A program made the translations under genes and the position numbers. Shown in pieces: positions 17,223-52,594 of a stretch of DNA of 56,618 nucleotides; position 1 is the first letter of the stretch; each line of letters begins with the position of its first letter. The notes beneath the pieces were generated by a model, which was not told the DNA's origin, searched no databases, and saw only the letters and a list, made by a program, of their open reading frames with translations. The DNA is from a virus: IMG/VR virus record IMGVR_UViG_3300045391_004489; one strand, 5' to 3'.

Positions 17223-17499
17223 CGCGTGGAGTAAGGCCAAGACGCCTGATGATGAGTGCGCCTTCTGTGGAACGCCGTACGTCAGTCACAAGGCGCAGGA
17301 GGCCTCTGGCGACATGTTCCACCAGTGGACTAACTCCTCGGGCGAGCTCCATGAGGTCCGTAAAACTCCTGCGCAGCCCTCCACACCGTCGCCGGCGGTC
17401 GTCATCGCGCCTGCGCCGGACATCGTGCTGCGAAAACTGCTGCGTGAGCTCGGTGTGATCACGCCTGAGCAGTATAAGGGCCTGTTTCAGGGTGACTAG
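17215..17499 (+). CDS. Hypothetical protein
   Basis: ORF track; coupled. Confidence 0.55.
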   Translation: MSDAWSKAKTPDDECAFCGTPYVSHKAQEASGDMFHQWTNSSGELHEVRKTPAQPSTPSPAVVIAPAPDIVLRKLLRELGVITPEQYKGLFQGD

Positions 17500-17896
17500 G
17501 CAGCTTCGCTGGCTGGAGTCGGCCAATCTCCCTCGCGCGGTGCTCGATGATATCGCCCGGCATATCGCCGGGGCGCTGCCTAGGGAGGCCGTGGGGCTTC
17601 TCTGGGAGGCCCCGGCACAGCCTGCTGGGTGGGTGCCGCTGCGAAACACTTCGTTCGAACCTGAGAGCTCCTACGCCGTGAATGTCGGCGAGCTGATGGA
17701 CGAATTCCAGCTAGCCACTGGTCGTGATATCATCAGCTCTATGAACGACGAGGGCTTCATGCTGACGCTGTGGCACAGTCATCCCAGCGGTCAGGTGGGT
17801 CCGAGTCGAGGCGACCTGAGGGAGAAGCACGACGGGCTGACGTACATGGTCATCGCTGTGGATGAGGACGGCGGTCTTCGGGCGACTCTCTTCTGA
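17492..17896 (+). CDS. JAB/MPN (JAMM) metallopeptidase-domain protein
   Basis: PREAVGLLW (Glu) plus WHSHPSGQVGPSRGD gives an intact E...HxH-x7-S-x2-D motif. Confidence 0.8.
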   Translation: MTRQLRWLESANLPRAVLDDIARHIAGALPREAVGLLWEAPAQPAGWVPLRNTSFEPESSYAVNVGELMDEFQLATGRDIISSMNDEGFMLTLWHSHPSGQVGPSRGDLREKHDGLTYMVIAVDEDGGLRATLF

Positions 17897-17915: not shown

Positions 17916-18746
17916 GTGACAACCGAATCCCTCGATGTCCCCGATGCGGCGAGCTCGGAGGTCCTGAACGTTCCGATGCCGCCGCCCGAGCCGTCGAAGA
18001 CTTTCATCGTTCAACCGGACACTAGGTTCGTCTTGCCGCCGCTGGTGCTTGACAGCACCATGCACGTGGACCTCGTGCAGGCCCAGGGCGACGACACGGG
18101 CATAGCCAACGCGGCCCGAGTCTCGACGACGGGCAGCATGGGACCGCGGGAGACGTCCGACGAGGACATCGCCGGCCTGATAGACTACCTGATGAAGCAT
18201 CGGCACGGCTCTCCGTTCGAGCACAACACCTTCACGTTCTTCGTCGAGGCGCCGATCTTCGTCTTCCGTGAGTTCCATCGCCACCGTGTGGGGTGGAGCT
18301 ACAACGAGCAGAGCGGACGATACCGTGAGCTTCAGCCGCACTTCTGGATTCCGCCGATCAACAGGCGGATCAAGCAGACCGGCAAGGCCGCCCACTATCG
18401 TCTGGTTCCCGGCAGCGTCCGTCAGATCGAGGTCGCGACGGAGGCGATGGTCTACGGCTACAAGCACGCCTGGGAGGCGTACCAGGCGATGCTCCGTGAG
18501 GGGGTCGCTCGAGAGGTGGCTCGTTCGGTGCTGCCGGTGGGTATCTATAGTTCGATGTACGCCACCTGTAACGCGCGGTCGCTGATGCACTTCTTGAGTC
18601 TGCGGACCGACGACAACCGGGCGATCAACGCCAGCAAGCCCATGGCCGAGATCGAGCAGGTCGCTCGTGAGATAGAGCGACTGTTCCAGGGTCGAATGCC
18701 CCTGACCCACGCTGCGTTCAACAAGTGGGGGCGGGTAGCCCCCTAA
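17916..18746 (+). CDS. thyX: Flavin-dependent thymidylate synthase ThyX
   Basis: ThyX signature FHRHRVGWSYNEQSGRYRE (RHR...S..S.RY). Confidence 0.9.
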   Translation: MTTESLDVPDAASSEVLNVPMPPPEPSKTFIVQPDTRFVLPPLVLDSTMHVDLVQAQGDDTGIANAARVSTTGSMGPRETSDEDIAGLIDYLMKHRHGSPFEHNTFTFFVEAPIFVFREFHRHRVGWSYNEQSGRYRELQPHFWIPPINRRIKQTGKAAHYRLVPGSVRQIEVATEAMVYGYKHAWEAYQAMLREGVAREVARSVLPVGIYSSMYATCNARSLMHFLSLRTDDNRAINASKPMAEIEQVAREIERLFQGRMPLTHAAFNKWGRVAP

Positions 18747-44562: not shown

Positions 44563-44880
44563 ATGCGTATACTGAAGAAGGTTGCCGGTGGTGCTGACAC
44601 CATCGGCGACCTCAAAGAGTTCATCGCGGCTGCAACGCAGGAAGGATTCACCGACGACCACAGGCTGAACGGCGGCGCCACCGTGGGGCTCTTCGTACAG
44701 GTGAACGACGACCGGCAAGCGCCGCTCGAGGACTACACCGGCAAGTGCGTCGAGTGCTTGCGCCGGGTTCCCGCGACCAAGGAGGGCGTGGCTAAGTCGC
44801 ACCTCAGGGGAGACACTGTTCACTCGGGGGAGTGCAGCGGCAGCCACCGGCGGGTCACTCAGCTGGGGCCGAGCCTGTGA
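44563..44880 (+). CDS. Hypothetical protein
   Basis: ORF track; strong SD. Confidence 0.55.
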   Translation: MRILKKVAGGADTIGDLKEFIAAATQEGFTDDHRLNGGATVGLFVQVNDDRQAPLEDYTGKCVECLRRVPATKEGVAKSHLRGDTVHSGECSGSHRRVTQLGPSL

Positions 44881-45407
44881 TCATCCTGGAGGGGCCGGAC
44901 GGCGCCGGCAAGACCTCGCTCATCCGACACCTGAACGACTGGCTCGCCATGCCGGTCGCTCCGAGGGTGGTGGGCCAGGACACCAAGCCACTCGTGGATA
45001 TATACGAGTGGACGAACAAGAACCTGGCTGAGGGTTTCCAGGACAAGCTCTTTGACCGACACCGCCTCATATCTGAGCCGATCTACTCGACGGTGATGGG
45101 TGGCGACCGGGACGAACAGTTCTGGGATCCGGCCTGGATGGGCGCTGCGCTCCGGGCGTTGCGGGAGATACAGCCGATAGTTATCTGGTGTCTGCCTAGT
45201 TTCAAGGCGGTCAATCACAACGTTCTCGGCGACCCGCACAACCAGACGGTGTGGATGCACATCGACAAGATCTACAAGGCCTATCAGTATGCGTGGTTGC
45301 TCAACACCTACGCGCCCTATCAGGTCCTCTGGGACTACCAGAACACCGATCTCCGGTGGTTCCAAGACCATCTGACCAACCTCATACGACGCAGGAAGGA
45401 CTCCTGA
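44877..45407 (+). CDS. Thymidylate-kinase-like dNMP kinase
   Basis: GTGA-coupled GTG start; P-loop ILEGPDGAGKTS; DRH..SEPIYS resembles the Tmk DR(Y/F)..S motif. Confidence 0.8.
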   Translation: MIILEGPDGAGKTSLIRHLNDWLAMPVAPRVVGQDTKPLVDIYEWTNKNLAEGFQDKLFDRHRLISEPIYSTVMGGDRDEQFWDPAWMGAALRALREIQPIVIWCLPSFKAVNHNVLGDPHNQTVWMHIDKIYKAYQYAWLLNTYAPYQVLWDYQNTDLRWFQDHLTNLIRRRKDS

Positions 45408-45892
45408 TGCTGGAGATCCCGACCGAGATATCCACGGATGACCCGAAGCAGCACGGCATCCCGTATCAGTCGGCGGCAGGTGTGGAGGGCGATCTCCCAC
45501 ACCGGGGGACGTACGACATGCTCCGAACGATCTTCGCGGGGCAGGTGCAGCTCGCTCAGCGGTACTACGAGGTGGAGCTCAAGAACGGCGAGCCCATGCC
45601 GTCGGAGGCCGACTGGGGCAACCTGCACTCGCGCACCGTCCAGATGAGGCTGCAGAGTCTCTTCGGGTATCTCGTGAGGGAGATGGGTGAGGCTGTCCAG
45701 CACCTGGACGCCAAGCCCTGGAAGACCAACTACCGCCCGACGCCCAGGAAGGAGTTCGTCGAGGAAGTGGCCGACTCGCTGCACTTCTTCGTCGAGTTCT
45801 GCCTGGTCGCCGGGATCGGGTCGAAGGAACTCTTCGACACCTACTTCTCGAAGTGGCAGACGAACCGTGACCGACAGGCCTCCAGTTACTAG
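45407..45892 (+). CDS. All-alpha NTP pyrophosphohydrolase (MazG / dimeric dUTPase-dCTPase type)
   Basis: ATGA-coupled; EMGEAVQHL ... EEVADSLHFFVEF acidic metal-binding helices. Confidence 0.75.
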   Translation: MLEIPTEISTDDPKQHGIPYQSAAGVEGDLPHRGTYDMLRTIFAGQVQLAQRYYEVELKNGEPMPSEADWGNLHSRTVQMRLQSLFGYLVREMGEAVQHLDAKPWKTNYRPTPRKEFVEEVADSLHFFVEFCLVAGIGSKELFDTYFSKWQTNRDRQASSY

Positions 45893-46003
45893 GGGCGCCC
45901 AGATCTTCGGGAAGGTGGCCGCCGTCGTTGTTCTTGGCGGCGGTCTCCTTCTCACTCTTCTCATCATCATCTGGGTCGCTGTACAGATTATCAGAGGAAT
46001 CTA

Positions 46004-47068
46004 GTGTACACCTACACCGCCAAGACGATGTCCGGTCTGCTGGACAGCATGACGCTGGACATCATGAGAGCTCCGTCGGACGAGCTCGACGTCATCTCCA
46101 ACGTCGACGTAGCCAAGCAGAATGTCATGGGCTACGCCGAGCACATGGACTACGAATTCGACCTCAAGACCATCTGGTTGGGTACAGCCCGCTGGTCGAT
46201 GATGGTCCGGCAGTACCTCGATCGTGACGAGGTGATGTCGTGGCTCCACCAGGCCTCCACTAAGATCGGCAAGCGAGGTCGAGGTCAGGCAGTACTTCGC
46301 ACCCGCATCGTTAAGCCCCGAGGTGGCGCCGCAACTGGCCACACGAACATGCAGACCCGCAAGTGGGGATCCTGCATGTTGTCGCTCAGCTACCGAGCAC
46401 TTCCCACACCGACGATCACGCTTCACAGTCGCACCTCGTATCTGGGGTATCTGTCGGCGCTGGACTTCAACATCGCCCACGTCTTGGGCCGGTATCTCGC
46501 CGACCAGATCGGCATCTCAGTCAAGGACATGTCGTTCGTGTGGATGGTTGAGTCAGTGCAGTGGCACGGCTTCAAGTCGCTGCCCTTCGCCATCTGCAAC
46601 AGCGACCCCAAGATCCGCCGATACTACCGACGTCTGCTGACCAAGAAGTTCGACGACTTGGACGCTGAGGAGCTCATCGAGTCCCAGACGCCGGCGATGC
46701 TGGTCACACGTCGATGGGTCAACTATGTCCGTCGGGAGGACCAGGCGGGCATGACTCTCGGCGACACGAACTACAACACTTACCGTCGAGTCCGCCGGCG
46801 GTGGCACACCGAAGTGCTGGGTTACAAGAAGGCCCAGGAGTTCGAGGGGTGGTCCCACGATCGCAACACGGGGGAGCGGAAGGAGTTCTTCAAGGCCTAC
46901 AAGCCTCTGCCCTCCGTCATGACTTCGTCGCTGGATCTGTCGCCGCTCAAGCTCCCGTTCGGGGGGGCATGGGTCTCGAACATCGACCTGACCGAGGACA
47001 TCAACGAGGCTGACACCATGTGCCTCTACTGTGGGGAGACCGAGTATGACGAATGCGAAGAAGACTGA
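46004..47068 (+). CDS. Divergent thymidylate-synthase(ThyA)-fold protein, function unknown
   Basis: By-eye alignment to the ThyA core: WGSCMLSLSY ~ [16 protein letters not shown] ~ YQRSC, DFNIAH ~ PFNIAS, DMSFVWMVESVQWH ~ DFVWTGGDTHLY. Confidence 0.6.
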   Translation: MYTYTAKTMSGLLDSMTLDIMRAPSDELDVISNVDVAKQNVMGYAEHMDYEFDLKTIWLGTARWSMMVRQYLDRDEVMSWLHQASTKIGKRGRGQAVLRTRIVKPRGGAATGHTNMQTRKWGSCMLSLSYRALPTPTITLHSRTSYLGYLSALDFNIAHVLGRYLADQIGISVKDMSFVWMVESVQWHGFKSLPFAICNSDPKIRRYYRRLLTKKFDDLDAEELIESQTPAMLVTRRWVNYVRREDQAGMTLGDTNYNTYRRVRRRWHTEVLGYKKAQEFEGWSHDRNTGERKEFFKAYKPLPSVMTSSLDLSPLKLPFGGAWVSNIDLTEDINEADTMCLYCGETEYDECEED

Positions 47069-47270
47069 TCGTCCGAAGTACATCTTCACCGTTATCGCCA
47101 ACGCCGCCGGGGGTTACGACGTCACCCGTCGAACCGCTGGTTCGGCACAGTCCTGGGTCATGGTATCGTATGACGACCGACAGGACGCCGACAACCTCAA
47201 GCAGCAGCTCGACATGCTGGAGCTCAGGGTGTGGGCTCGACGCGTACGACAGGCCAGGAAGAAGGGCTGA
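47046..47270 (+). CDS. Hypothetical protein (74 aa)
   Basis: In-frame ATG of ORF 47031..47270. Confidence 0.5.
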   Translation: MTNAKKTDRPKYIFTVIANAAGGYDVTRRTAGSAQSWVMVSYDDRQDADNLKQQLDMLELRVWARRVRQARKKG

Positions 47271-48145
47271 TGCACCACATACAAAGCCGATGGTTTCCCT
47301 CGATATGGGACGACGCAGTAGAGCTGCTCCTCACGTTCGGCGAGACCATCGATGGCTCAACTCGGTGGCAAGGCCAGGACGTTGCCGGTAAGCAGGACAT
47401 GGTGCCGGTCGAACTGCAGAACGTGATATTTGAGATGAGCATGCCCCACACAGTCGCGGGTGCCAACCGGGTGTATCACCCGAACCTGCCCTGGGCTGAG
47501 GACCACTTCCTCGAACGTGTGGGAGGCGCTCCGCTCAATCCGCCCCCGTCGGCTAAGACCTGGCCCTTCGCTCAGTCTGGCCATGTGATGCACACCGACA
47601 AGCAGGGTCAGTTCTCCCACACGTACCCCGAGCGGTTCTGGCCGAAGCACGCTGGTCACTCGGCGACTGGCTGTAACGCCGTGACTCATGAAGAGGGTGA
47701 CAACATCTACTGCGACTACGGTCGCAATATCGGGGTTAGGTACTACCTTGGCGATCTGATCGACGTGGTCGATCTGCTTCGCCGTGAGCCGAGCACCCGT
47801 CAGGCCTATCTGCCGATCTGGTTCCCGGAAGACACGGGTGCAGCCGAGGGTCAGCGGGTGCCGTGCTCTCTCGGGTACCACTTCATGGTCCGCGAGGGCA
47901 AGCTTAACATCACGTACATGATCCGCGCGGTGGACTTCATGCGCCACTTTCGGGACGACGTCTACATGGCGACTCGTCTTGCTCAGTGGGTGGCGAGGGA
48001 GTTGGATAACTTGTACCCGCCGGGAATGTTGACCATGCACATCATGTCGTTGCACTGCTTCGTTGGTGACATGCCGGCGCTTCGATCGATCGCTTCAAAG
48101 ATTGGTCAAGGACGGTCTGAGAGATTGCTTGGAGCGATGAGATGA
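47270..48145 (+). CDS. ThyA-family pyrimidine-C5 enzyme with Asp at the Asn177 position (dCMP hydroxymethylase/methylase-like)
   Basis: TRQAYLPIWFPED...VPCSLGYHFMVREGKLNITYMIRAVDFMRHFRDDVYMATRL aligns colinearly with E. coli ThyA SRRIIVSAWN...[40 protein letters not shown]. Confidence 0.8.
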   Translation: MHHIQSRWFPSIWDDAVELLLTFGETIDGSTRWQGQDVAGKQDMVPVELQNVIFEMSMPHTVAGANRVYHPNLPWAEDHFLERVGGAPLNPPPSAKTWPFAQSGHVMHTDKQGQFSHTYPERFWPKHAGHSATGCNAVTHEEGDNIYCDYGRNIGVRYYLGDLIDVVDLLRREPSTRQAYLPIWFPEDTGAAEGQRVPCSLGYHFMVREGKLNITYMIRAVDFMRHFRDDVYMATRLAQWVARELDNLYPPGMLTMHIMSLHCFVGDMPALRSIASKIGQGRSERLLGAMR

Positions 48146-48639
48146 GCTCAGCCGAGTCATCATTCAGCGCGCGTCGATCCTCGAGCCGTAAGATTCTCAT
48201 GGAGTCTGCGAAGCTTTGGGCCCAGAGATCGACCTGCAGCCGCAGTCAGGTCGGAGTGGTCATCTCCTCTCTTGACAATCGTATCCTGGTGACTGGCTAC
48301 AACGGTGCACCCAGTGGTATGCCTCACTGCAACCACTCGTGCGACTGTCAGATCGAAACCTTCGGTCAGGAATACCACGCACCCTACTGTGCGCTCATGC
48401 TCGGCTGTGAGATCTCGGTGCATGGAGAGGCCAACGCCATCGCCTTCGCCGCCAAGAACGGCATCCGGTTGGTCCAGTCACGCCTGTACACTACTCTGTC
48501 GCCTTGCTACAAGTGCGCGCAGCTGATCATCAACGTGGGTGTGGAGGAGGTAGTCTACCTGGAAGCCTACCGCGATCTAGCAGGAGTGGACCTACTTGCC
48601 AACGCGGGGCTAGAGGTGGTACAATATGGGCATGACTAA
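48142..48639 (+). CDS. dCMP deaminase
   Basis: Zinc motifs VHGEANAI and SPCYKCAQLI; ATGA-coupled. Confidence 0.88.
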   Translation: MSSAESSFSARRSSSRKILMESAKLWAQRSTCSRSQVGVVISSLDNRILVTGYNGAPSGMPHCNHSCDCQIETFGQEYHAPYCALMLGCEISVHGEANAIAFAAKNGIRLVQSRLYTTLSPCYKCAQLIINVGVEEVVYLEAYRDLAGVDLLANAGLEVVQYGHD

Positions 48640-49015
48640 GCACATCGATATCAACAACCCGGCCCAGGTACACAACTGGCTGGTTGCCCGGTTCCCCAAC
48701 CGCAAGCCGGAGAACGCCGCCGACAAGACATACCAGGTCTTGATCACGTGGCCGATGCCGTTCAAGCGAGACGGCAACGAACCGCATGAGATCCTGGGCA
48801 CCATCGACGAGTGGTGCACCCAGCTGTGGAAGGCCCACAGCCTCCGATCAGAATTCGAGTTCGAGTTCTTCCATGTCTGGGGCTACGCGATGAGCGGTCA
48901 ACTCAGTCTCGCCTTGAGCTCGGAGATGGCCGAGGCCCTCTGTGACGCGATGGCGCGCGCACCCTATTTCCTGCTCACCTACCCGGGCTTCTGTATGAAG
49001 TTCACCAGCAACTGA
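48626..49015 (+). CDS. Hypothetical protein
   Basis: ORF track. Confidence 0.55.
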   Translation: MGMTKHIDINNPAQVHNWLVARFPNRKPENAADKTYQVLITWPMPFKRDGNEPHEILGTIDEWCTQLWKAHSLRSEFEFEFFHVWGYAMSGQLSLALSSEMAEALCDAMARAPYFLLTYPGFCMKFTSN

Positions 49016-49022
49016 GGACGAT

Positions 49023-51545
49023 ATGATCTACGACAGCGCTTGCACCAAGTGCAAGTTGCATCGTGGCACCGAGTCCGTCTGCGACCCTGGTTTCGGCCAG
49101 GCGCAGGCGGACATTATGGTGGTGTCCAAGATGCCGAACGGCGACAGATACCAAGCCGCGCTCGAGGAGGACCTGGCTCAGGCAGGTGTGGATCTGGGGC
49201 GAATATACTGGGCGTCGGCGCTGAAGTGCCGAAACTTCGACGCCAATGCTAGCAACGCGGATGTCAAGGCATGTAAGCCCTACCTCGACGCTGAGATCGA
49301 GAAGGTTCAGCCCCGGTACATCCTCTCCCTGGGTAACGAGGCGCTCCTCGCGACGACGGGTCACAGTGGTATCACGAAGTGGCGCGGCAAACCCGTGGAG
49401 CTGGGCAACATGACCATCTTCCCGACCATCTCGCCGGCGGCTGTACTCGCCCGCCCTCAGAATCGCCCGGGCTACCAGGCCGACCTGAAGTTCTTCGCCA
49501 CGATGGCGAACGGTCAGCAAGCTGAGGGTGTGAAGGTGATCACGCCCGACACGATTCTGAGCAATGATGATCTGAGACTACTCAAGGTCAGATTGAAGGA
49601 CGCCAAGCTGGTGTACTTCGACATCGAGACTAACATCGTGCCGCTCCAGGAGTTCGACCCTCGCGCTCGGGTTATCTCGATGTGCGGCACATATGTCAGC
49701 GCCTCCACAGGCGAGGTGGGAGGCTTCAGGATTCCTCTGTATCACCCTGAATCGCCTTGGCGCACTCAGTGGCGATCTATGCTGCGGCACGTCGTGCCAA
49801 TCATGGCCAAGATCCCAATCCGCATCGCACACAACGGTAAGTTCGACTGCCGGTGGTTGCGTAAGCACAGCGGGGTCCACATCACTCTCACGTTCGACAC
49901 CATGATTGGTGTACACCTGCTGGACGAGAATGTGCAGAAGGGTCTTAAGCCACAGGGCACGATGAGACTCGGCGTCGCACCATGGGGTGTGGACACGAAA
50001 GACCTGCTCAGCATGCCGATCGAGGAGGTACTGGAGTACAACTTCCTCGACACTTTCTACGGCTACCTGATCTATCTGCAGGTACGCGAGGAGCTCATCG
50101 CTCAGCCCAGGTTGCTCCGGATCATGATGAAGTTGCTCATGCCGGCAAGCAACAATCTCACAACTGCGGAGGGTAACGGTGTCTGGCTTGACGTCGAGAG
50201 ACTTGCAGAACGTACCCCGATCGCCCAGGCTAAGCTCGATGAGATCGAGAACAAGGTTCGGGCTTACATTCCCGATCCCTCGATCGAGACCTGGCCCACG
50301 AACAAGGCTGGCAAGAAGGTGGAGGTTAATCTCAACGCGTCAATCTTCGCCAAGTGGTTACTCTTCGACCACCTCGGACTACCTGTACTGGCTCGAGGTA
50401 AGGAGAAGCCTGACGGCCGGCCGGGCGACCCAAGCATGGCTGAGGGAGTACTACTCCTTCTCAACGACGTGCCCAAACCCCACCCCGTCGTGCAGACTAT
50501 GCTGGATCGCATCGAATGGCAGAAAGCTATGTCGTCGTTCTTCGGTCCCTATTCGGGTCTGTACGACGAGAACCAGAAAGTCCACACATCCTTCAAGCTT
50601 ACCGGCACTGTCACCGGCCGACTTAGCAGTGGCAAGGAGGATGCTTCAAAACTTAGTGGACGCACTTCGTCTATTCGGGGAGTCAATCTTCAGCAAGTTC
50701 CCCGCGATCCATTCATCCGCGGTCTCTTCGGTGCAAGTCCAGGTCGTACCTGGATTGAGGCCGACTTCTCTCAAGTTGAGCTTAGGGTCGCTGCCTTCTG
50801 TGCTAAAGAACGGACGATGATCTCGCTCTATCAGCAGGGCGCAGACATCCACATGGTTACGGCCATGCGCATGACAGGCAAGGCAGCGAAGAACATCACC
50901 AAAGAGGAACGGAAGAAGGCCAAGCCGGTGAACTTCGGCTTCCTCTACGGTATGGGGTGGCTGAAGTTCATCGTCACCGCGTTCAACAACTATGGGGTGA
51001 AGTTCAGCGAGGCAGAAGCGAAGGCTTACCGTAAGGCATACTTCGATCTGTACCCCGATCTGCTCGCCTGGCACGAACGTCAGCGACGACTCGTACATTA
51101 CAACGCTCGGGTGCAGTCGCCGATCGGCCGAGTACGTCACCTGCCGGACATCAACTCCCCCGATCCAAAGGTGCGTGCAGAGGCTGAGCGTCAGGCCATC
51201 AACTCTCCCGTACAGGGGTTGGCCAGCGACATGGCCTTGGCCGGGATGAATTTGTTCGTTGAGAGGTTGACAACCGAGGGTCTGTCGGATAAGGTCTCAG
51301 TACTGGGCCTTGTTCACGACGCCATCAATATCGAGGCTGATGACGACGTCGCGGGCCGGGCCATGGTACTGCTGAAGGAGTCGATGGAGGACATGGACAA
51401 CATGCGGAGGCTGTTCGGCCTCGACATGACCGTGCCTATCGTCGCCGACGTCAAGGTGGGCCGACACTGGGGTGACTCGGTCGAACTCACCGAGGAGCAG
51501 GTCTACGACTTCACCACACTCGACAAGATGGGATTAGTTGCATGA
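49023..51545 (+). CDS. Family A DNA polymerase with 3'-5' exonuclease and N-terminal degenerate UDG-family-4-like domain
   Basis: Exo I VYFDIETN; motif A DFSQVELRVAAF; motif B RKKAKPVNFGFLYG; motif C LVHDAI; N-terminus CTKCKL...ADIMVVSKMPNG...KC...LGNEAL...PTISPAAVL. Confidence 0.92.
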   Translation: MIYDSACTKCKLHRGTESVCDPGFGQAQADIMVVSKMPNGDRYQAALEEDLAQAGVDLGRIYWASALKCRNFDANASNADVKACKPYLDAEIEKVQPRYILSLGNEALLATTGHSGITKWRGKPVELGNMTIFPTISPAAVLARPQNRPGYQADLKFFATMANGQQAEGVKVITPDTILSNDDLRLLKVRLKDAKLVYFDIETNIVPLQEFDPRARVISMCGTYVSASTGEVGGFRIPLYHPESPWRTQWRSMLRHVVPIMAKIPIRIAHNGKFDCRWLRKHSGVHITLTFDTMIGVHLLDENVQKGLKPQGTMRLGVAPWGVDTKDLLSMPIEEVLEYNFLDTFYGYLIYLQVREELIAQPRLLRIMMKLLMPASNNLTTAEGNGVWLDVERLAERTPIAQAKLDEIENKVRAYIPDPSIETWPTNKAGKKVEVNLNASIFAKWLLFDHLGLPVLARGKEKPDGRPGDPSMAEGVLLLLNDVPKPHPVVQTMLDRIEWQKAMSSFFGPYSGLYDENQKVHTSFKLTGTVTGRLSSGKEDASKLSGRTSSIRGVNLQQVPRDPFIRGLFGASPGRTWIEADFSQVELRVAAFCAKERTMISLYQQGADIHMVTAMRMTGKAAKNITKEERKKAKPVNFGFLYGMGWLKFIVTAFNNYGVKFSEAEAKAYRKAYFDLYPDLLAWHERQRRLVHYNARVQSPIGRVRHLPDINSPDPKVRAEAERQAINSPVQGLASDMALAGMNLFVERLTTEGLSDKVSVLGLVHDAINIEADDDVAGRAMVLLKESMEDMDNMRRLFGLDMTVPIVADVKVGRHWGDSVELTEEQVYDFTTLDKMGLVA

Positions 51546-52594
51546 CCACGATGACAATCACTACGAAGGGAGGCTTCAAGAATCCACTCAGCGTGATCGA
51601 GCGGCGGTGGCTCAAGGTGTGGACCTTGGGCCACGTTGTTTTGCTCTCCACGATCTACATGCTGGACTCGATGAGCCACCGTACCTTCGACCAGACCATC
51701 CAGGCCTGGGACGCCAACATCTTTCAGAACATCGCTCGCTACGGTTACTTCGAACATCAGTCCACACCTCACAGTGTCGCCTTCTTCCCCGGCCTGCCAG
51801 TTATCCTGGGTCTAACCAAGAACTTCACCGCGGGCAACTGGGTGGTGGCTGAACTGTTGATCGCTTATGTATCTGGATCGATCGCGCTAGTGGGCCTCGC
51901 CCGACTTCATCCCGCCGCTCCCAAGTTCATGCTCATGTCTCCCGCAACCATCTTTTTGATGCTCGGGTATAGTGAATCGCCCTATCTTGCCTTTGCAGTG
52001 TGGGCATGGTACCACACCAGGCGGCGTCACTACTGGGCTGCGGGATGGTTGCTCGCCGGCGCATGCTCACTTCGTGTGGAGGGTCTGTTTCTGTGGATCT
52101 CACTTATGTTGATGGGCAAATCGGTCAAGCTGATGATAGGGCTTATCACACCCCTCCTCTACGAGCTGTTCCTCTTCGTCCACACCCACGACTGGCTGGC
52201 CTGGAGTCATGCAGAGGCTGCCGGTTGGAACCGCCGCACCGAGTGGCCATGGGATACCTGGGAGGCCTCATGGCACTACGCGGGGTGGGCTGGCGGATCA
52301 TACGGCGGGGAGGAGAAAGTCGAGATCTTCTGCGCCATCGTCATGCTACTCTTCTGTATCATCTTCCTGATTGACAAAGACTGGCCCTCTCTGGTATACT
52401 GCTGTATCACGATGATGACGCTAACTACCTCTGACTTCTACATGAGCATCCCGCGGGCACTGCTCGTAGTCTTTCCCATCTGGGTCAGGCTGGCACGGTC
52501 GAGAGAGACTGTGCGCTGGGGATGGTTGTCGGTAGCCGCGCCTGTCATGGTGATGATCAGTTACTTCTACCTGACAGGACAGTGGGCTGGATGA
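51542..52594 (+). CDS. Polytopic membrane GT-C glycosyltransferase (PIG-V/mannosyltransferase-like)
   Basis: WDANIFQNIARYGY...HSVAFFPGLPVILG signature followed by many TM helices. Confidence 0.7.
   Translation: MTTMTITTKGGFKNPLSVIERRWLKVWTLGHVVLLSTIYMLDSMSHRTFDQTIQAWDANIFQNIARYGYFEHQSTPHSVAFFPGLPVILGLTKNFTAGNWVVAELLIAYVSGSIALVGLARLHPAAPKFMLMSPATIFLMLGYSESPYLAFAVWAWYHTRRRHYWAAGWLLAGACSLRVEGLFLWISLMLMGKSVKLMIGLITPLLYELFLFVHTHDWLAWSHAEAAGWNRRTEWPWDTWEASWHYAGWAGGSYGGEEKVEIFCAIVMLLFCIIFLIDKDWPSLVYCCITMMTLTTSDFYMSIPRALLVVFPIWVRLARSRETVRWGWLSVAAPVMVMISYFYLTGQWAG

What the first reader, a model, noticed from the sequence alone, without database searches (positions are those of the whole stretch)
44563..48639. 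T4-like deoxycytidylate-modification gene set built around a ThyA homologue with an Asn->Asp specificity switch
Seen: a run of mostly translationally coupled genes. It contains a Tmk-like P-loop dNMP kinase (44877..45407), an all-alpha MazG/dimeric-dUTPase-type NTP pyrophosphatase (45407..45892), a ThyA-family enzyme (47270..48145) and a dCMP deaminase (48142..48639).

Aligned by eye to E. coli ThyA, the 47270 product keeps the nucleophile Cys (VPCSLGYHF). It also keeps an Arg exactly 20 residues later (MIRAVD). The residue 11 positions after that Arg is Asn177 in ThyA (PFNIAS), but here it is Asp (FRDDVY).

Established: Asn177 selects uracil. N177D ThyA variants and T4 dCMP hydroxymethylase (Asp at the equivalent site) act on dCMP.

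A separate flavin-dependent ThyX (17916..18746) already supplies dTMP.

Inference: the set kinase + dCTPase-like enzyme + dCMP-C5 enzyme + deaminase + thymidylate synthase follows the same logic as T4 gp1/gp56/gp42/cd/td. Virion DNA therefore probably carries 5-hydroxymethyl- or 5-methyl-cytosine, possibly decorated further. No soluble glycosyltransferase was recognised.
Basis: partly seen in the sequence, partly recalled or inferred. Interest (0 to 1): 0.85.

Follow-up and report, generated by a model that had tools for sequence, protein, structure and literature searches.

The report
Phage cytosine-replacement cassette with twin ThyA folds
This phage carries a compact gene set that most likely swaps ordinary cytosine in its DNA for a C5-modified cytosine; it includes a second, previously unrecognised thymidylate-synthase-like enzyme of unknown chemistry, and the same set sits in about 85 cultured actinobacteriophages (including the therapeutic phage Muddy), where it is annotated as plain "thymine synthesis".

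Summary
47270..48145 encodes a ThyA-family enzyme. It keeps the nucleophile Cys199, Arg219 and the folate-binding Asp222, and has Asp230 where E. coli ThyA has Asn177. Three alignment methods agree, and the Asp is invariant in 36 homologues and in 80/80 IMG/VR loci. The MazG/dUTPase_2-like pyrophosphatase, dCMP deaminase and ThyX are confirmed. The "Tmk-like" kinase is only a divergent P-loop kinase.

It is a second, very divergent ThyA-fold protein ("A") with its own invariant Cys/Arg/Asp in ThyA register. It matches no Pfam or PDB sequence. A is almost never found without the ThyA-like enzyme ("B"): 48/49 A loci have B, and 58/80 B loci have A.

B fits no characterised class:
- Not dTMP synthase.
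- Not a flavin 5-hydroxy-dCMP synthase (Asp169 kept).
- Not Xp12/PaMx74-type methylase (no C-terminal tail, no DHFR found).
- Not the T4 hydroxymethylase signature (Arg, not Asp/Glu, at Cys-3).

A-less relatives of B sit next to a carbamoyltransferase and sugar enzymes, which favours a 5-hydroxymethyl product.

Best reading: pre-replicative replacement of dC by a 5hmC-type base, possibly further converted by A. This is a new variant of a known kind. The modification itself is unproven.

The parts
44563..44880 (+). Small ORF (105 aa) with CxxC...C...H-type cysteines, coupled to the kinase gene. Function unknown.
   Evidence: ORF; no family hit. A 105-aa ORF sits in the same position in L138. 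Overlaps the kinase start by 4 nt.
44877..45407 (+). P-loop nucleotide kinase (176 aa). Proposed to phosphorylate the modified dNMP. Specificity unknown.
   Evidence: phrog_761 'thymidylate kinase' 1.6e-10. Pfam gives only weak AAA hits. TIGR00041: 17 bits against a cut-off of 83. Only the P-loop aligns to E. coli Tmk. Homologues are annotated variously as thymidylate, polynucleotide, guanylate or adenylate kinase. The position is conserved in Muddy, Shrew, Strzyga, L006 and L007.
45407..45892 (+). All-alpha MazG/dimeric-dUTPase-type NTP pyrophosphohydrolase (161 aa). Proposed dCTPase/dUTPase that yields dCMP and keeps dCTP out of DNA.
   Evidence: PF08761 dUTPase_2: 2.2e-6, 28.5 bits against a cut-off of 22.9. 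phrog_12184 at 1.5e-29. No PDB sequence hit. Substrate is inferred from T4 gp56 logic and from PRA-PH co-occurrence in C-modified contigs (PMC8670742).
46004..47068 (+). Protein 'A' (354 aa): a second, highly divergent ThyA-fold protein. It has invariant Cys124, Arg143 and Asp154, with Tyr146 at the Asp169 (folate) position. It carries a C-terminal Arg-rich helical extension and an acidic tail.
   Evidence: AF2 pLDDT 87.7. Foldseek PDB: MilA 1e-7, AfhB 1e-6, T4 dCH 1.4e-5. BFVD: uncharacterised phage proteins, then many ThyA/dCH. No Pfam, NCBIfam or PDB sequence hit, even with profiles. phrog_13667 'unknown' 9e-99. Y71, G122, C124, R143 and D154 are invariant across Muddy, Clostridium, Brevundimonas and aquatic members. 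hhalign places the register at C146/R166/D169/N177, weakly (E 1.4e-3). 222 clusters in 1.84 billion proteins.
47031..47270 (+). Small ORF (79 aa) bridging A and B. A small ORF is found here in close relatives, but no sequence comparison was made.
   Evidence: ORFs of 51, 111 and 82 aa occupy the same place in Shrew, L004 and L138. Absent in Muddy. No family hit.
47270..48145 (+). Protein 'B' (291 aa): a folate-type ThyA-family enzyme specific for a cytosine nucleotide. It keeps C199, Y119, R219 and D222. D230 stands at the Asn177 position, R196 at the Leu143 position, S200 at His147 and H117 at Tyr-2. It has no TS-type C-terminal tail. Proposed dCMP C5-hydroxymethylase.
48142..48639 (+). dCMP/dCTP-family zinc deaminase (165 aa; HGE and PCxxC motifs). 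Proposed to feed dUMP to ThyX. Activity on modified cytosine nucleotides is possible.
   Evidence: PF00383 3e-22. phrog_174 3e-49. 30% identical to the PaMx74 deaminase. Deaminases of this neighbourhood often prefer 5mdCTP or 5hmdCTP (bioRxiv 10.1101/2024.12.05.627091).
48626..49015 (+). ORF (129 aa) of unknown function between the deaminase and the polymerase.
   Evidence: no hit. The related contig L004 has a YAcAr/SLOG gene in this neighbourhood.
49023..51545 (+). Family A DNA polymerase with 3'-5' exonuclease and an N-terminal UDG-like domain. The enzyme that would incorporate the modified dNTP.
   Evidence: PF00476 1e-69, PF03167 9e-13, PF01612 9e-6. Same position in all related loci.
17916..18746 (+). 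Flavin-dependent thymidylate synthase ThyX. Independent dTMP supply that does not produce dihydrofolate.
   Evidence: PF02511 3.4e-48.

Best explanation
**What it is.** A pre-replicative pathway that replaces deoxycytidine in phage DNA with a C5-modified deoxycytidine. It is built from four co-transcribed genes plus the phage polymerase.

**Proposed steps.**
1. The MazG/dUTPase_2-type pyrophosphatase hydrolyses dCTP (and dUTP) to the monophosphate. This removes the canonical precursor and feeds dCMP (inferred).
2. Enzyme B (47270..48145) attacks C6 of dCMP with Cys199 and transfers the methylene of 5,10-CH2-THF to C5.
   - Shown: the fold, the catalytic residues, Asp230 in place of the uracil-selecting Asn, and retention of the folate-binding Asp222.
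   - Inferred: the product is most likely 5-hydroxymethyl-dCMP (about 0.45), less likely 5-methyl-dCMP (about 0.25), or another 5-CH2-X adduct.
3. Protein A (46004..47068) is a second ThyA-fold enzyme with its own Cys/Arg/Asp but no folate-binding Asp. It occurs essentially only where B occurs. I propose that it acts on B's product or on B's exocyclic-methylene intermediate, still at the nucleotide level, and converts it into the final base. An alternative is that it works as an obligatory partner of B (inferred; the chemistry is unknown).
4. The P-loop kinase phosphorylates the modified dNMP, host NDP kinase completes the triphosphate, and the phage PolA incorporates it (inferred).
5. dCMP deaminase plus ThyX make dTMP. 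Neither a hydroxymethylase nor ThyX produces dihydrofolate, which fits the absence of a phage DHFR (inferred).

**Purpose.** Protection from restriction and other DNA-targeting defences.
For: **B is cytosine-specific and folate-type.**
- B is a ThyA-family enzyme with D at N177 by three alignment methods. The Asp is invariant.
- Its nearest solved relatives are cytosine-specific: MilA, AfhB and the L. casei N229D mutant.
- N177D converts TS into a dCMP enzyme, and N177D is the residue most associated with C-modified metavirome contigs (PMC8670742; PMC13326640).
- D169 is kept, so the D169N rule for flavin 5-hydroxy-dCMP synthases is not met (PMC13326640).

**Context.**
- ThyX lies in the same genome, which makes a second dTMP synthase redundant.
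- The gene order kinase-PPase-A-B-deaminase-PolA is conserved from actinophages to Brevundimonas and aquatic phages.
- The same neighbourhood is enriched in restriction-resistant, C-modified contigs (bioRxiv 10.1101/2024.12.05.627091).

**Evidence for a hydroxymethyl product.**
- B lacks the TS C-terminal tail needed to seal the site for hydride transfer, as do T4 dCH and MilA (PMC6400193).
- No DHFR was found among the scanned ORFs, unlike PaMx74.
- B-type enzymes with the identical active-site signature sit next to a carbamoyltransferase (2e-67), a glycosyltransferase fusion and sugar-nucleotide enzymes in A-less loci. A related carbamoyltransferase was shown to act on 5hmC (PMC8670742).

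**Evidence that A is an active partner.**
- ThyA fold.
- Cys/Arg/Asp invariant across very distant members and in ThyA register.
- 48/49 A loci contain B. 58/80 B loci have an A-family ORF on the same strand just upstream; all those listed were within about 2 kb.
Against: - There is no chemical evidence. Nothing here shows that virion DNA is modified, and no paper in the searched library reports modification in Muddy, GTE2, CT-cluster or related phages.
- B fails the published hydroxymethylase signature. It has Arg, not Asp/Glu, at Cys-3 and His, not Ser/Thr, at Tyr-2. In T4 dCH even D145N abolishes 5hm-dCMP formation (PMC6400193).
- The carbamoyltransferase and sugar-enzyme association rests on a few single loci.
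- The kinase and PPase specificities are unknown.
- A's relation to ThyA is detectable only by fold and by a weak profile alignment (probability 17%). Its role is speculative.
- The absence of DHFR is based on Pfam scans of most, not all, ORFs.
- Cultured relatives are routinely sequenced and engineered without reported difficulty (my own knowledge). That is compatible with a small modification but not with a bulky one.
Confidence: 0.6

Rival explanations
1. Xp12/PaMx74-type 5-methylcytosine phage. B is a dCMP methyltransferase making 5-methyl-dCMP. The deaminase converts part of the 5mdCTP pool to dTTP. A is an accessory protein.
For: N177D ThyA homologues located next to deaminases made 5mdCMP in 5 of 7 tested cases, and Xp12 and PaMx74 replace C with 5mC (bioRxiv 10.1101/2024.12.05.627091). 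The NTP-PPase-ThyA(D)-deaminase order is the same in PaMx74. B lacks the acidic Cys-3 residue considered necessary for water activation (PMC6400193). No glycosyl- or carbamoyl-transferase is present in A-containing loci.
Against: PaMx74 gp52 is a near-canonical ThyA: 32% identity to E. coli ThyA, a full C-terminal tail, and DHFR encoded a few genes away. B has 17% identity, no tail, and no DHFR was found. ThyX is present, so the 5mdCTP-to-dTTP shortcut is not needed. B-type enzymes occur beside enzymes that need a hydroxyl acceptor.
Confidence: 0.2
2. Ordinary thymidylate supply, as in current SEA-PHAGES annotations ('thymine synthesis': deaminase, thymidylate synthase, dUTPase, thymidylate kinase). 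B makes dTMP and the DNA is canonical.
For: This is the annotation in about 80 GenBank records and in the Azira announcement (PMC10353413). The four activities would form a coherent dTTP pathway. No modification has been reported for these well-studied phages.
Against: Asp is invariant at the uracil-selecting Asn177 position. His147 is replaced by Ser/Thr, as in cytosine enzymes (PMC8670742). The best structural relatives act on cytosine nucleotides. ThyX is already present in this genome and in L006 and L007. This reading gives no role to the conserved second ThyA-fold protein.
Confidence: 0.07
3. Nucleotide-pool manipulation without genome-wide replacement. A and B make a modified cytosine nucleotide that is incorporated only partially, or that serves another purpose, such as depleting dCTP or countering a nucleotide-sensing defence.
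For: The PPase and kinase specificities are unknown. Relatives are sequenced and engineered by standard methods (my own knowledge). The genome shows neither avoidance nor enrichment of palindromic sites, which is uninformative.
Against: The cassette is fixed next to the replicative polymerase across very distant phages. The equivalent neighbourhood was recovered by selecting for DNA resistant to C-sensitive restriction enzymes (bioRxiv 10.1101/2024.12.05.627091; PMC8670742).
Confidence: 0.1

Closest known systems
T4 dCMP hydroxymethylase pathway (gp42 with gp56 dCTPase, gp1 dNMP kinase, cd, td)
   Same: The logic is the same: an NTP-PPase, a ThyA-fold enzyme with Asp at the Asn177 position, a kinase, a dCMP deaminase and a separate dTMP synthase. 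B, like gp42, lacks the TS C-terminal tail and has an 'FR(N/D)D' motif around the specificity Asp.
   Different: B is only distantly related to gp42: hmmsearch E 5e-4 against 2e-8 for MilA. It has Arg196 where gp42 has the essential Asp145, and His117 where gp42 has Ser94 (PMC6400193). The kinase is unrelated to gp1-type annotation. dTMP comes from ThyX, not ThyA. There is no glucosyltransferase. A second ThyA-fold protein is present.
Xp12 / PaMx74 5-methylcytosine siphophages and the MetaGPA 'modified-cytosine' contig class
   Same: Siphophage-sized genomes of about 55-60 kb with ThyA(N177D) next to a dCMP-family deaminase and a MazG-type PPase. The MetaGPA C-modified contig class additionally has PolA close by (bioRxiv 10.1101/2024.12.05.627091). 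The class was experimentally linked to C-modified DNA.
   Different: Their ThyA homologue is near-canonical and is accompanied by DHFR in PaMx74. They have no protein A. This genome encodes ThyX as well.
MilA (CMP 5-hydroxymethylase, mildiomycin pathway; PDB 5b6d/5jnh)
   Same: Best solved match to both B (phmmer 5e-6, profile 2e-8, Foldseek 8e-12) and A (Foldseek 1e-7). Asp at the N177 position. Short C-terminus.
   Different: MilA has Asp at Cys-3. It acts on the ribonucleotide in antibiotic biosynthesis, and it is cellular.
Flavin-dependent 5-hydroxy-dCMP synthases (RB69 gp48, DLP3 gp80, HY126 AfhB; PDB 9iqc/9iqu)
   Same: ThyA fold, Asp at N177, acts on dCMP. Second-best structural match for both A and B.
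   Different: Their diagnostic D169N substitution (PMC13326640) is absent. B keeps Asp222. A has Tyr146, and this position varies across the A family.
Thymidine hypermodification pathways (5hmdU -> kinase -> aGPT-Pplase; M6, ViI, PaMx11, phiW-14)
   Same: A ThyA-fold hydroxymethylase plus a P-loop kinase in one cluster. There is the idea of a further conversion of the hydroxymethyl group (PMC5889632, PMC8989533 listed).
   Different: Those pathways act on uracil (Asn kept) and convert the base after replication, on DNA, using aGPT-Pplase, PLP or radical-SAM enzymes. Among the proteins scanned here (the cassette proteins and about 30 other ORFs), none matched such a Pfam family.

Membership tests
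Thymidylate synthase superfamily (Pfam PF00303) - protein B | Profile match above the gathering score, and the ThyA fold | tested here: met
   27.6 bits against a cut-off of 24.3. AF2 model matches MilA, AfhB and TS at Foldseek E down to 8e-12, probability 1.0.
Thymidylate synthase superfamily - protein B | Catalytic Cys146, Arg166 and Tyr94 equivalents | tested here: met
   C199, R219 and Y119 are invariant in 36 homologues and aligned by hhalign and MAFFT.
Canonical dTMP synthase (ThyA) | Asn177, which selects uracil | tested here: not met
   Asp230 at this position. Asp in 80/80 related IMG/VR loci.
Canonical dTMP synthase (ThyA) | Hydrophobic Leu143 and a C-terminal tail that seals the site for hydride transfer | tested here: not met
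   Arg196 at the Leu143 position. Only about 27 residues follow the His207 equivalent, forming two helices.
T4-type dCMP hydroxymethylase (signature of PMC6400193) | Asp at the Asn177 position, and no C-terminal tail | tested here: met
   D230 and a short C-terminus.
T4-type dCMP hydroxymethylase (signature of PMC6400193) | Asp/Glu three residues before the catalytic Cys (water activation), and Ser/Thr two residues before the catalytic Tyr | tested here: not met
   Arg196 and His117, both invariant.
Flavin-dependent 5-hydroxy-dCMP synthase | D169N substitution (PMC13326640) | tested here: not met
   Asp222 is retained and invariant.
Xp12/PaMx74-type dCMP methyltransferase | N177D in an otherwise canonical ThyA scaffold. 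DHFR accompanies it in PaMx74. | tested here: not met
   N177D is present, but the scaffold is non-canonical: 17% identity to E. coli ThyA against 32% for PaMx74 gp52, and no tail. No DHFR among the scanned ORFs.
Thymidylate synthase superfamily - protein A (46004..47068) | Sequence-profile membership (PF00303) | tested here: not met
   No Pfam, NCBIfam or PDB sequence hit for the protein or for 43 family members. hhalign against B or E. coli ThyA is negative.
Thymidylate synthase superfamily - protein A (46004..47068) | ThyA fold with a nucleophile Cys, a phosphate-binding Arg and a base-specificity residue in register | tested here: met
   Foldseek MilA 1e-7, AfhB 1e-6, T4 dCH 1.4e-5. BFVD ThyA/dCH hits. 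C124, R143 and D154 are invariant and align to C146, R166 and N177 in a weak hhalign match (E 1.4e-3). TM-scores are modest (0.38-0.58).
dCMP deaminase (PF00383) | Profile match, with zinc-binding H(A/G)E and PCxxC motifs | tested here: met
   78.8 bits against a cut-off of 25. 'HGEANA' and 'SPCYKCA' are visible in the translation. Substrate (dCMP or modified dCTP) is not testable here.
All-alpha NTP pyrophosphohydrolase (dUTPase_2/MazG) | Profile match; dCTP specificity | tested here: inconclusive
   PF08761 is met (28.5 against 22.9), but over only 44 residues. Specificity cannot be read from sequence, and there is no PDB hit.
Thymidylate kinase (Tmk) | Equivalog profile TIGR00041. The DR(Y/H) acceptor motif and LID are further Tmk motifs. 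| tested here: not met
   17 bits against a cut-off of 83. BLASTP to E. coli Tmk aligns only the P-loop. An 'FDRH' motif is seen by eye in the translation. phrog_761 at 1.6e-10.
ThyX (PF02511) | Profile match | tested here: met
   164 bits against a cut-off of 24.8.

The most novel reading that the evidence does not exclude
Protein A founds a new, folate-independent branch of the thymidylate-synthase fold. Using Cys124 and Asp154, it would re-activate the 5-hydroxymethyl-dCMP made by B (or capture B's exocyclic-methylene intermediate) and attach a different group. This would produce a so far undescribed hypermodified cytosine at the free-nucleotide stage, without any DNA-level transferase. The same base would then be present in the DNA of roughly a hundred cultured actinobacteriophages (clusters AB and CT, Shrew/Huwbert, Zuko), including the therapeutic phage Muddy, and in hundreds of uncultured 55-60-kb phages.
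Probability: 0.25. Interest if true: 0.85.

Novelty: new variant of a known kind. Interest (0 to 1): 0.62.

Why it matters
**Annotation.** About 85 phage genomes in the GenBank/INPHARED collection searched here, among them Muddy (used in compassionate phage therapy against Mycobacterium abscessus), annotate this cassette as thymidylate synthesis. If these phages instead replace cytosine, that affects several things:
- how their DNA is seen by restriction, CRISPR and type IV systems;
- how it is sequenced and engineered;
- possibly how it is sensed by innate immunity.

**Enzymology.** B shows that the published residue rules (Asn177, Leu143, Asp169) do not cover all cytosine-modifying ThyA homologues. 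At least 470 IMG/VR loci carry the Arg(-3)/His(Tyr-2) signature.

**A new enzyme family.** Protein A is a compact family (222 clusters at 50% identity) found, in every case examined, on phage or phage-like contigs. It has a ThyA fold, has lost the folate-binding Asp, and depends on B. It is a concrete, easily testable candidate for new nucleotide chemistry and for new tools in epigenetic sequencing.

Tried and rejected
- **aGPT-pyrophosphorylase or 5-HMUDK-type thymidine hypermodification.** I suspected at first that the 354-aa ORF was of this kind. Rejected: no Pfam hit, the fold is ThyA, and B has Asp, not Asn.
- **5-hydroxy-dCMP synthase for B.** Rejected by the D169N rule.
- **Sequence-level link between A and ThyA.** phmmer and hmmsearch against PDB with three profiles, Pfam on 43 members, and hhalign against B and against E. 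coli ThyA were all negative. Only a mixed-family profile gave a weak in-register match.
- **Literature on modified DNA in relatives.** Searches for Muddy, FF47, GTE2, CT-cluster or Gordonia phages found nothing relevant.
- **Restriction-site avoidance as indirect evidence.** Palindromic 4- and 6-mers are at expectation (mean O/E 1.05 and 0.99). This is compatible with protection by modification but not diagnostic.
- **Residue at Cys-4 (Glu or Gln) as a tracker of A.** Glu occurs in 13/17 A-less loci and 22/75 A-containing loci. It varies widely and the loci are phylogenetically confounded, so I did not use it as evidence.
- **The membrane GT-C-like protein after PolA as a DNA glycosyltransferase.** Rejected. 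It is a polytopic membrane protein, it has only a weak PIG-V match, and it is absent from related loci.

Full report
**1. What is in the sequence**

The window is a ~56.6-kb contig with about 60% G+C. It carries a terminase, tail genes, a RepB-primase/AAA_25 protein, an SNF2 helicase, a family A polymerase and a Cas4-like nuclease. It has no close cultured relative: the best nucleotide matches are 66-71% identity over short stretches to Curtobacterium phage Shrew and Microbacterium phages Huwbert and Triscuit.

The + strand between 44563 and 52594 holds a run of genes whose starts overlap the preceding stops by 1-14 nt. In order:
- a 105-aa ORF;
- a P-loop kinase (44877..45407);
- an all-alpha NTP pyrophosphatase (45407..45892);
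- a 354-aa ORF (46004..47068);
- a 79-aa ORF;
- a ThyA-family gene (47270..48145);
- a dCMP deaminase (48142..48639);
- a 129-aa ORF;
- PolA (49023..51545).

ThyX at 17916..18746 is also confirmed.

**2. The specificity switch is real**

Three methods were applied to the 47270 product ("B"):
- HMMER against PDB sequences;
- hhalign of a 36-sequence family alignment against E. coli ThyA;
- a MAFFT alignment with E. coli ThyA, T4 gp42 and PaMx74 gp52.

All three give the same equivalences:

| B residue | E. coli ThyA position |
|---|---|
| Cys199 | Cys146 |
| Ser200 | His147 |
| Arg219 | Arg166 |
| Asp222 | Asp169 |
| Asp230 | Asn177 |
| Arg196 | Leu143 |
| Tyr119 | Tyr94 |

All are invariant among 36 homologues of 47-65% identity. 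In 80 IMG/VR loci recovered with patterns that did not include the Asp, 80/80 have Asp at the Asn177 position.

The best solved relatives are enzymes that act on cytosine nucleotides. They are MilA, the HY126 dCMP hydroxylase AfhB, and the L. casei N229D mutant. The AlphaFold model (pLDDT 80) gives the same ranking by fold.

Asn177Asp is the established determinant of cytosine specificity. It was also the residue most associated with cytosine-modified contigs in metaviromes (PMC8670742; PMC13326640). With ThyX in the same genome, reading B as a thymidylate synthase is very unlikely.

**3. B belongs to none of the characterised classes**

Published rules (PMC13326640, PMC6400193) separate four kinds of ThyA homologue:
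- dTMP synthases have Asn177, Leu143 and a C-terminal tail.
- T4-type hydroxymethylases have Asp177, Asp/Glu at Cys-3, Ser/Thr at Tyr-2 and no tail.
- Flavin 5-hydroxy-dCMP synthases carry D169N.
- Xp12/PaMx74 methylases have Asp177 on a near-canonical scaffold.

B has Asp177 and no tail. It has Arg at Cys-3 and His at Tyr-2, and it keeps Asp169. It shares 17% identity with E. coli ThyA, against 32% for PaMx74 gp52. At least 470 IMG/VR stretches carry the B-type motifs RVPC[ST][LI]GY or FSHTYPE. B therefore represents a large, uncharacterised clade.

**4. What product? Indirect evidence favours a hydroxymethyl group**

(a) B has no C-terminal tail to seal the site for hydride transfer (PMC6400193).

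(b) No DHFR was found among the ORFs scanned, whereas PaMx74 encodes one near its methylase. A hydroxymethylase and ThyX both regenerate THF, so the phage would need no DHFR.

(c) ThyX makes the Xp12-style route to dTTP through 5mdCTP deamination unnecessary.

(d) In loci where a B-type enzyme with the identical active-site signature lacks protein A, the neighbours include:
- a carbamoyltransferase 1.3 kb upstream (L133:3000-4673; PF16861, 2e-67);
- an FkbM-methyltransferase/GT34 fusion immediately downstream;
- DegT-type sugar aminotransferases;
- a HAD/sugar-nucleotidyltransferase.

A related metavirome carbamoyltransferase was shown to carbamoylate 5hmC (PMC8670742), and glycosylation also needs a hydroxyl. 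Each of these associations comes from one or a few loci, and the missing acidic residue at Cys-3 argues the other way. I therefore put 5hm-dCMP at about 0.45, 5m-dCMP at about 0.25, and another adduct at about 0.3.

**5.

The 354-aa ORF between the pyrophosphatase and B ("A") has no Pfam, NCBIfam or PDB sequence match, even with family profiles. It belongs to PHROG 13667, 'unknown function'.

Its AlphaFold model is confident (pLDDT 87.7). It matches MilA (1e-7), AfhB (1e-6), T4 dCMP hydroxymethylase (1.4e-5) and then many thymidylate synthases in PDB. In the viral structure library it matches uncharacterised phage proteins followed by ThyA and dCH entries.

The predicted secondary structure has the ThyA arrangement:
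- Cys124 lies immediately before a beta-strand.
- Arg143 lies near the end of the following strand.
- Asp154 lies 11 residues later, in the following helix.

This is the same spacing as Arg166 to Asn177.

The family was sampled across Muddy gp47, Clostridium phage P21_00026, Brevundimonas Strzyga_00470 and an aquatic phage protein annotated 'pyrimidine hmase synthase'. Across these, only Tyr71, Gly122, Cys124, Arg143 and Asp154 are invariant. A profile-profile comparison with a mixed ThyA alignment is weak (E 1.4e-3, probability 17%). It nevertheless aligns these residues with Cys146, Arg166 and Asn177, and puts Tyr146 at the Asp169 position. That position varies in the family (Tyr/His/Glu/Ser), which argues against folate binding.

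The family is small, with 222 clusters at 50% identity in 1.84 billion proteins. Every context examined was a phage or phage-like contig.

**6. A depends on B**

- In IMG/VR, 48 of 49 A-centred loci contain a B-type gene within 6 kb.
- 58 of 80 B-centred loci have an A-family ORF on the same strand upstream of B; all those listed were within about 2 kb.
- The rest include contigs of 100-370 kb. They have B without a detectable A, and these are the loci that carry the transferase genes.
- Six A-containing loci show no transferase. Four come with deposited annotation (Shrew, Muddy, Strzyga, MW202455) and two with precomputed Pfam hits (L004, L138).
- In the GenBank phage collection, A is found in 85 records: Gordonia 68, Mycobacterium 9, Streptomyces 4, Microbacterium 2, Curtobacterium 1, Mycobacteroides 1. 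In the loci inspected it lies next to B.

This asymmetry is what one expects if A uses the product, or an intermediate, of B. A would then be an alternative to DNA-level decoration. I propose a nucleotide-level conversion of the 5-CH2 group through renewed Cys addition at C6. An obligatory heteromeric partnership is also possible. This step is inference only.

**7. The other parts**

- **Pyrophosphatase.** It passes PF08761 and matches a phage NTP-PPase PHROG. Its dCTPase role is inferred from T4 gp56 and from the co-occurrence of MazG-type domains with ThyA(N177D) in modified contigs (PMC8670742).
- **Kinase.** It is a divergent P-loop protein. It has phrog_761 support but fails the Tmk equivalog model, and only the P-loop aligns to E. 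coli Tmk. Relatives carry four different kinase annotations.
- **Deaminase.** It is a bona fide PF00383 member. Enzymes of this neighbourhood often prefer 5mdCTP or 5hmdCTP (bioRxiv 10.1101/2024.12.05.627091), so its substrate here is open.

**8. Comparison with the literature and novelty**

Pre-replicative cytosine replacement by ThyA homologues is well known (T4, Xp12, RB69). The gene neighbourhood has been linked experimentally to modified cytosine in metaviromes. In that sense this is a member of a known kind of system.

Three things are new:
- the B-type active-site signature, which escapes the published product rules;
- the conserved second ThyA-fold protein A;
- the realisation that the cassette annotated as 'thymine synthesis' in CT-cluster Gordonia phages (PMC10353413), Muddy and others is of this type.

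I found no report of modified DNA in any of these phages in seven literature searches. I therefore rate it a new variant of a known kind, with interest 0.62. The interest would rise sharply if A turns out to make a new base.

**9. Limits**

- Nothing here demonstrates modification of virion DNA.
- The product of B, the substrates of the PPase, kinase and deaminase, and the function of A are all inferred.
- Structure-based residue equivalences for A rest on Foldseek scores, predicted secondary structure and a weak profile alignment.

Noticed in passing
window 51542..52594 (+): A 350-aa polytopic membrane protein, translationally coupled to the end of PolA, has a weak match to PIG-V-type (GT-C) mannosyltransferases (PF04188, 1.3e-6, short stretch). 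It is absent at this position in Shrew, Muddy, L004 and L138. It could modify the host envelope (superinfection exclusion) rather than DNA.
   Followed up: partly
window 49023..51545 (+): The family A DNA polymerase carries an N-terminal UDG-superfamily domain (PF03167, 9e-13) ahead of the 3'-5' exonuclease. The same fusion is seen in L004 and L138. Whether the domain is catalytic or reads or excludes particular pyrimidines is unknown.
   Followed up: no
window ~45900..46004 (+), frame of ORF 45687..46004: The 111-nt 'gap' between the pyrophosphatase and protein A is covered, in another frame, by an ORF tail that encodes a strongly hydrophobic segment (…VAAVVVLGGGLLLTLLIIIWVAVQIIRGI). Its stop overlaps the start of A. 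It may be a tiny membrane peptide. A 67-aa 'superinfection immunity protein' is annotated just after the NTP-PPase gene in MW202455 (L007).
   Followed up: no
L133:3000-8280 (IMGVR_UViG_3300034374_012521, 118 kb): A B-type ThyA homologue (same R/H/D/D signature) is flanked by a full-length carbamoyltransferase and an FkbM-methyltransferase/GT34-like fusion. This is a candidate for 5-carbamoyloxymethyl- or glycosyl-cytosine in a large phage.
   Followed up: partly
L058-L137 (B-type loci): The residue four before the catalytic Cys is Glu in 13/17 loci without protein A, but in only 22/75 loci with it (Gln, Lys and others otherwise). This may relate to water activation, but it is confounded by phylogeny.
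   Followed up: partly
GenBank records of Gordonia, Mycobacterium, Streptomyces and Curtobacterium phages: Homologues of the cassette kinase are annotated as thymidylate, polynucleotide, guanylate or adenylate kinase in different records. B is uniformly called 'thymidylate synthase' and A 'hypothetical protein'. The annotation needs revision.
   Followed up: partly
L004:8891-9325 and L004:2997-3410 (Streptomyces sp. NPDC002248 assembly, 58.7-kb contig): A related phage-like contig in a bacterial genome assembly inserts a YAcAr/SLOG-family gene between B and the deaminase. It also carries a T4 endoV-like pyrimidine-dimer glycosylase (Pyr_excise) upstream.
   Followed up: no
window 17492..17896 (+): A prokaryotic JAB/MPN-domain protein (PF14464, 5e-9) lies immediately upstream of ThyX. 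Its role is unknown.
   Followed up: no
whole window: Palindromic 4-mers and 6-mers (GATC, CCGG, GCGC and others) occur at the frequency expected from a maximal-order Markov model (mean O/E 1.05 and 0.99). There is no sign of restriction-site avoidance.
   Followed up: yes
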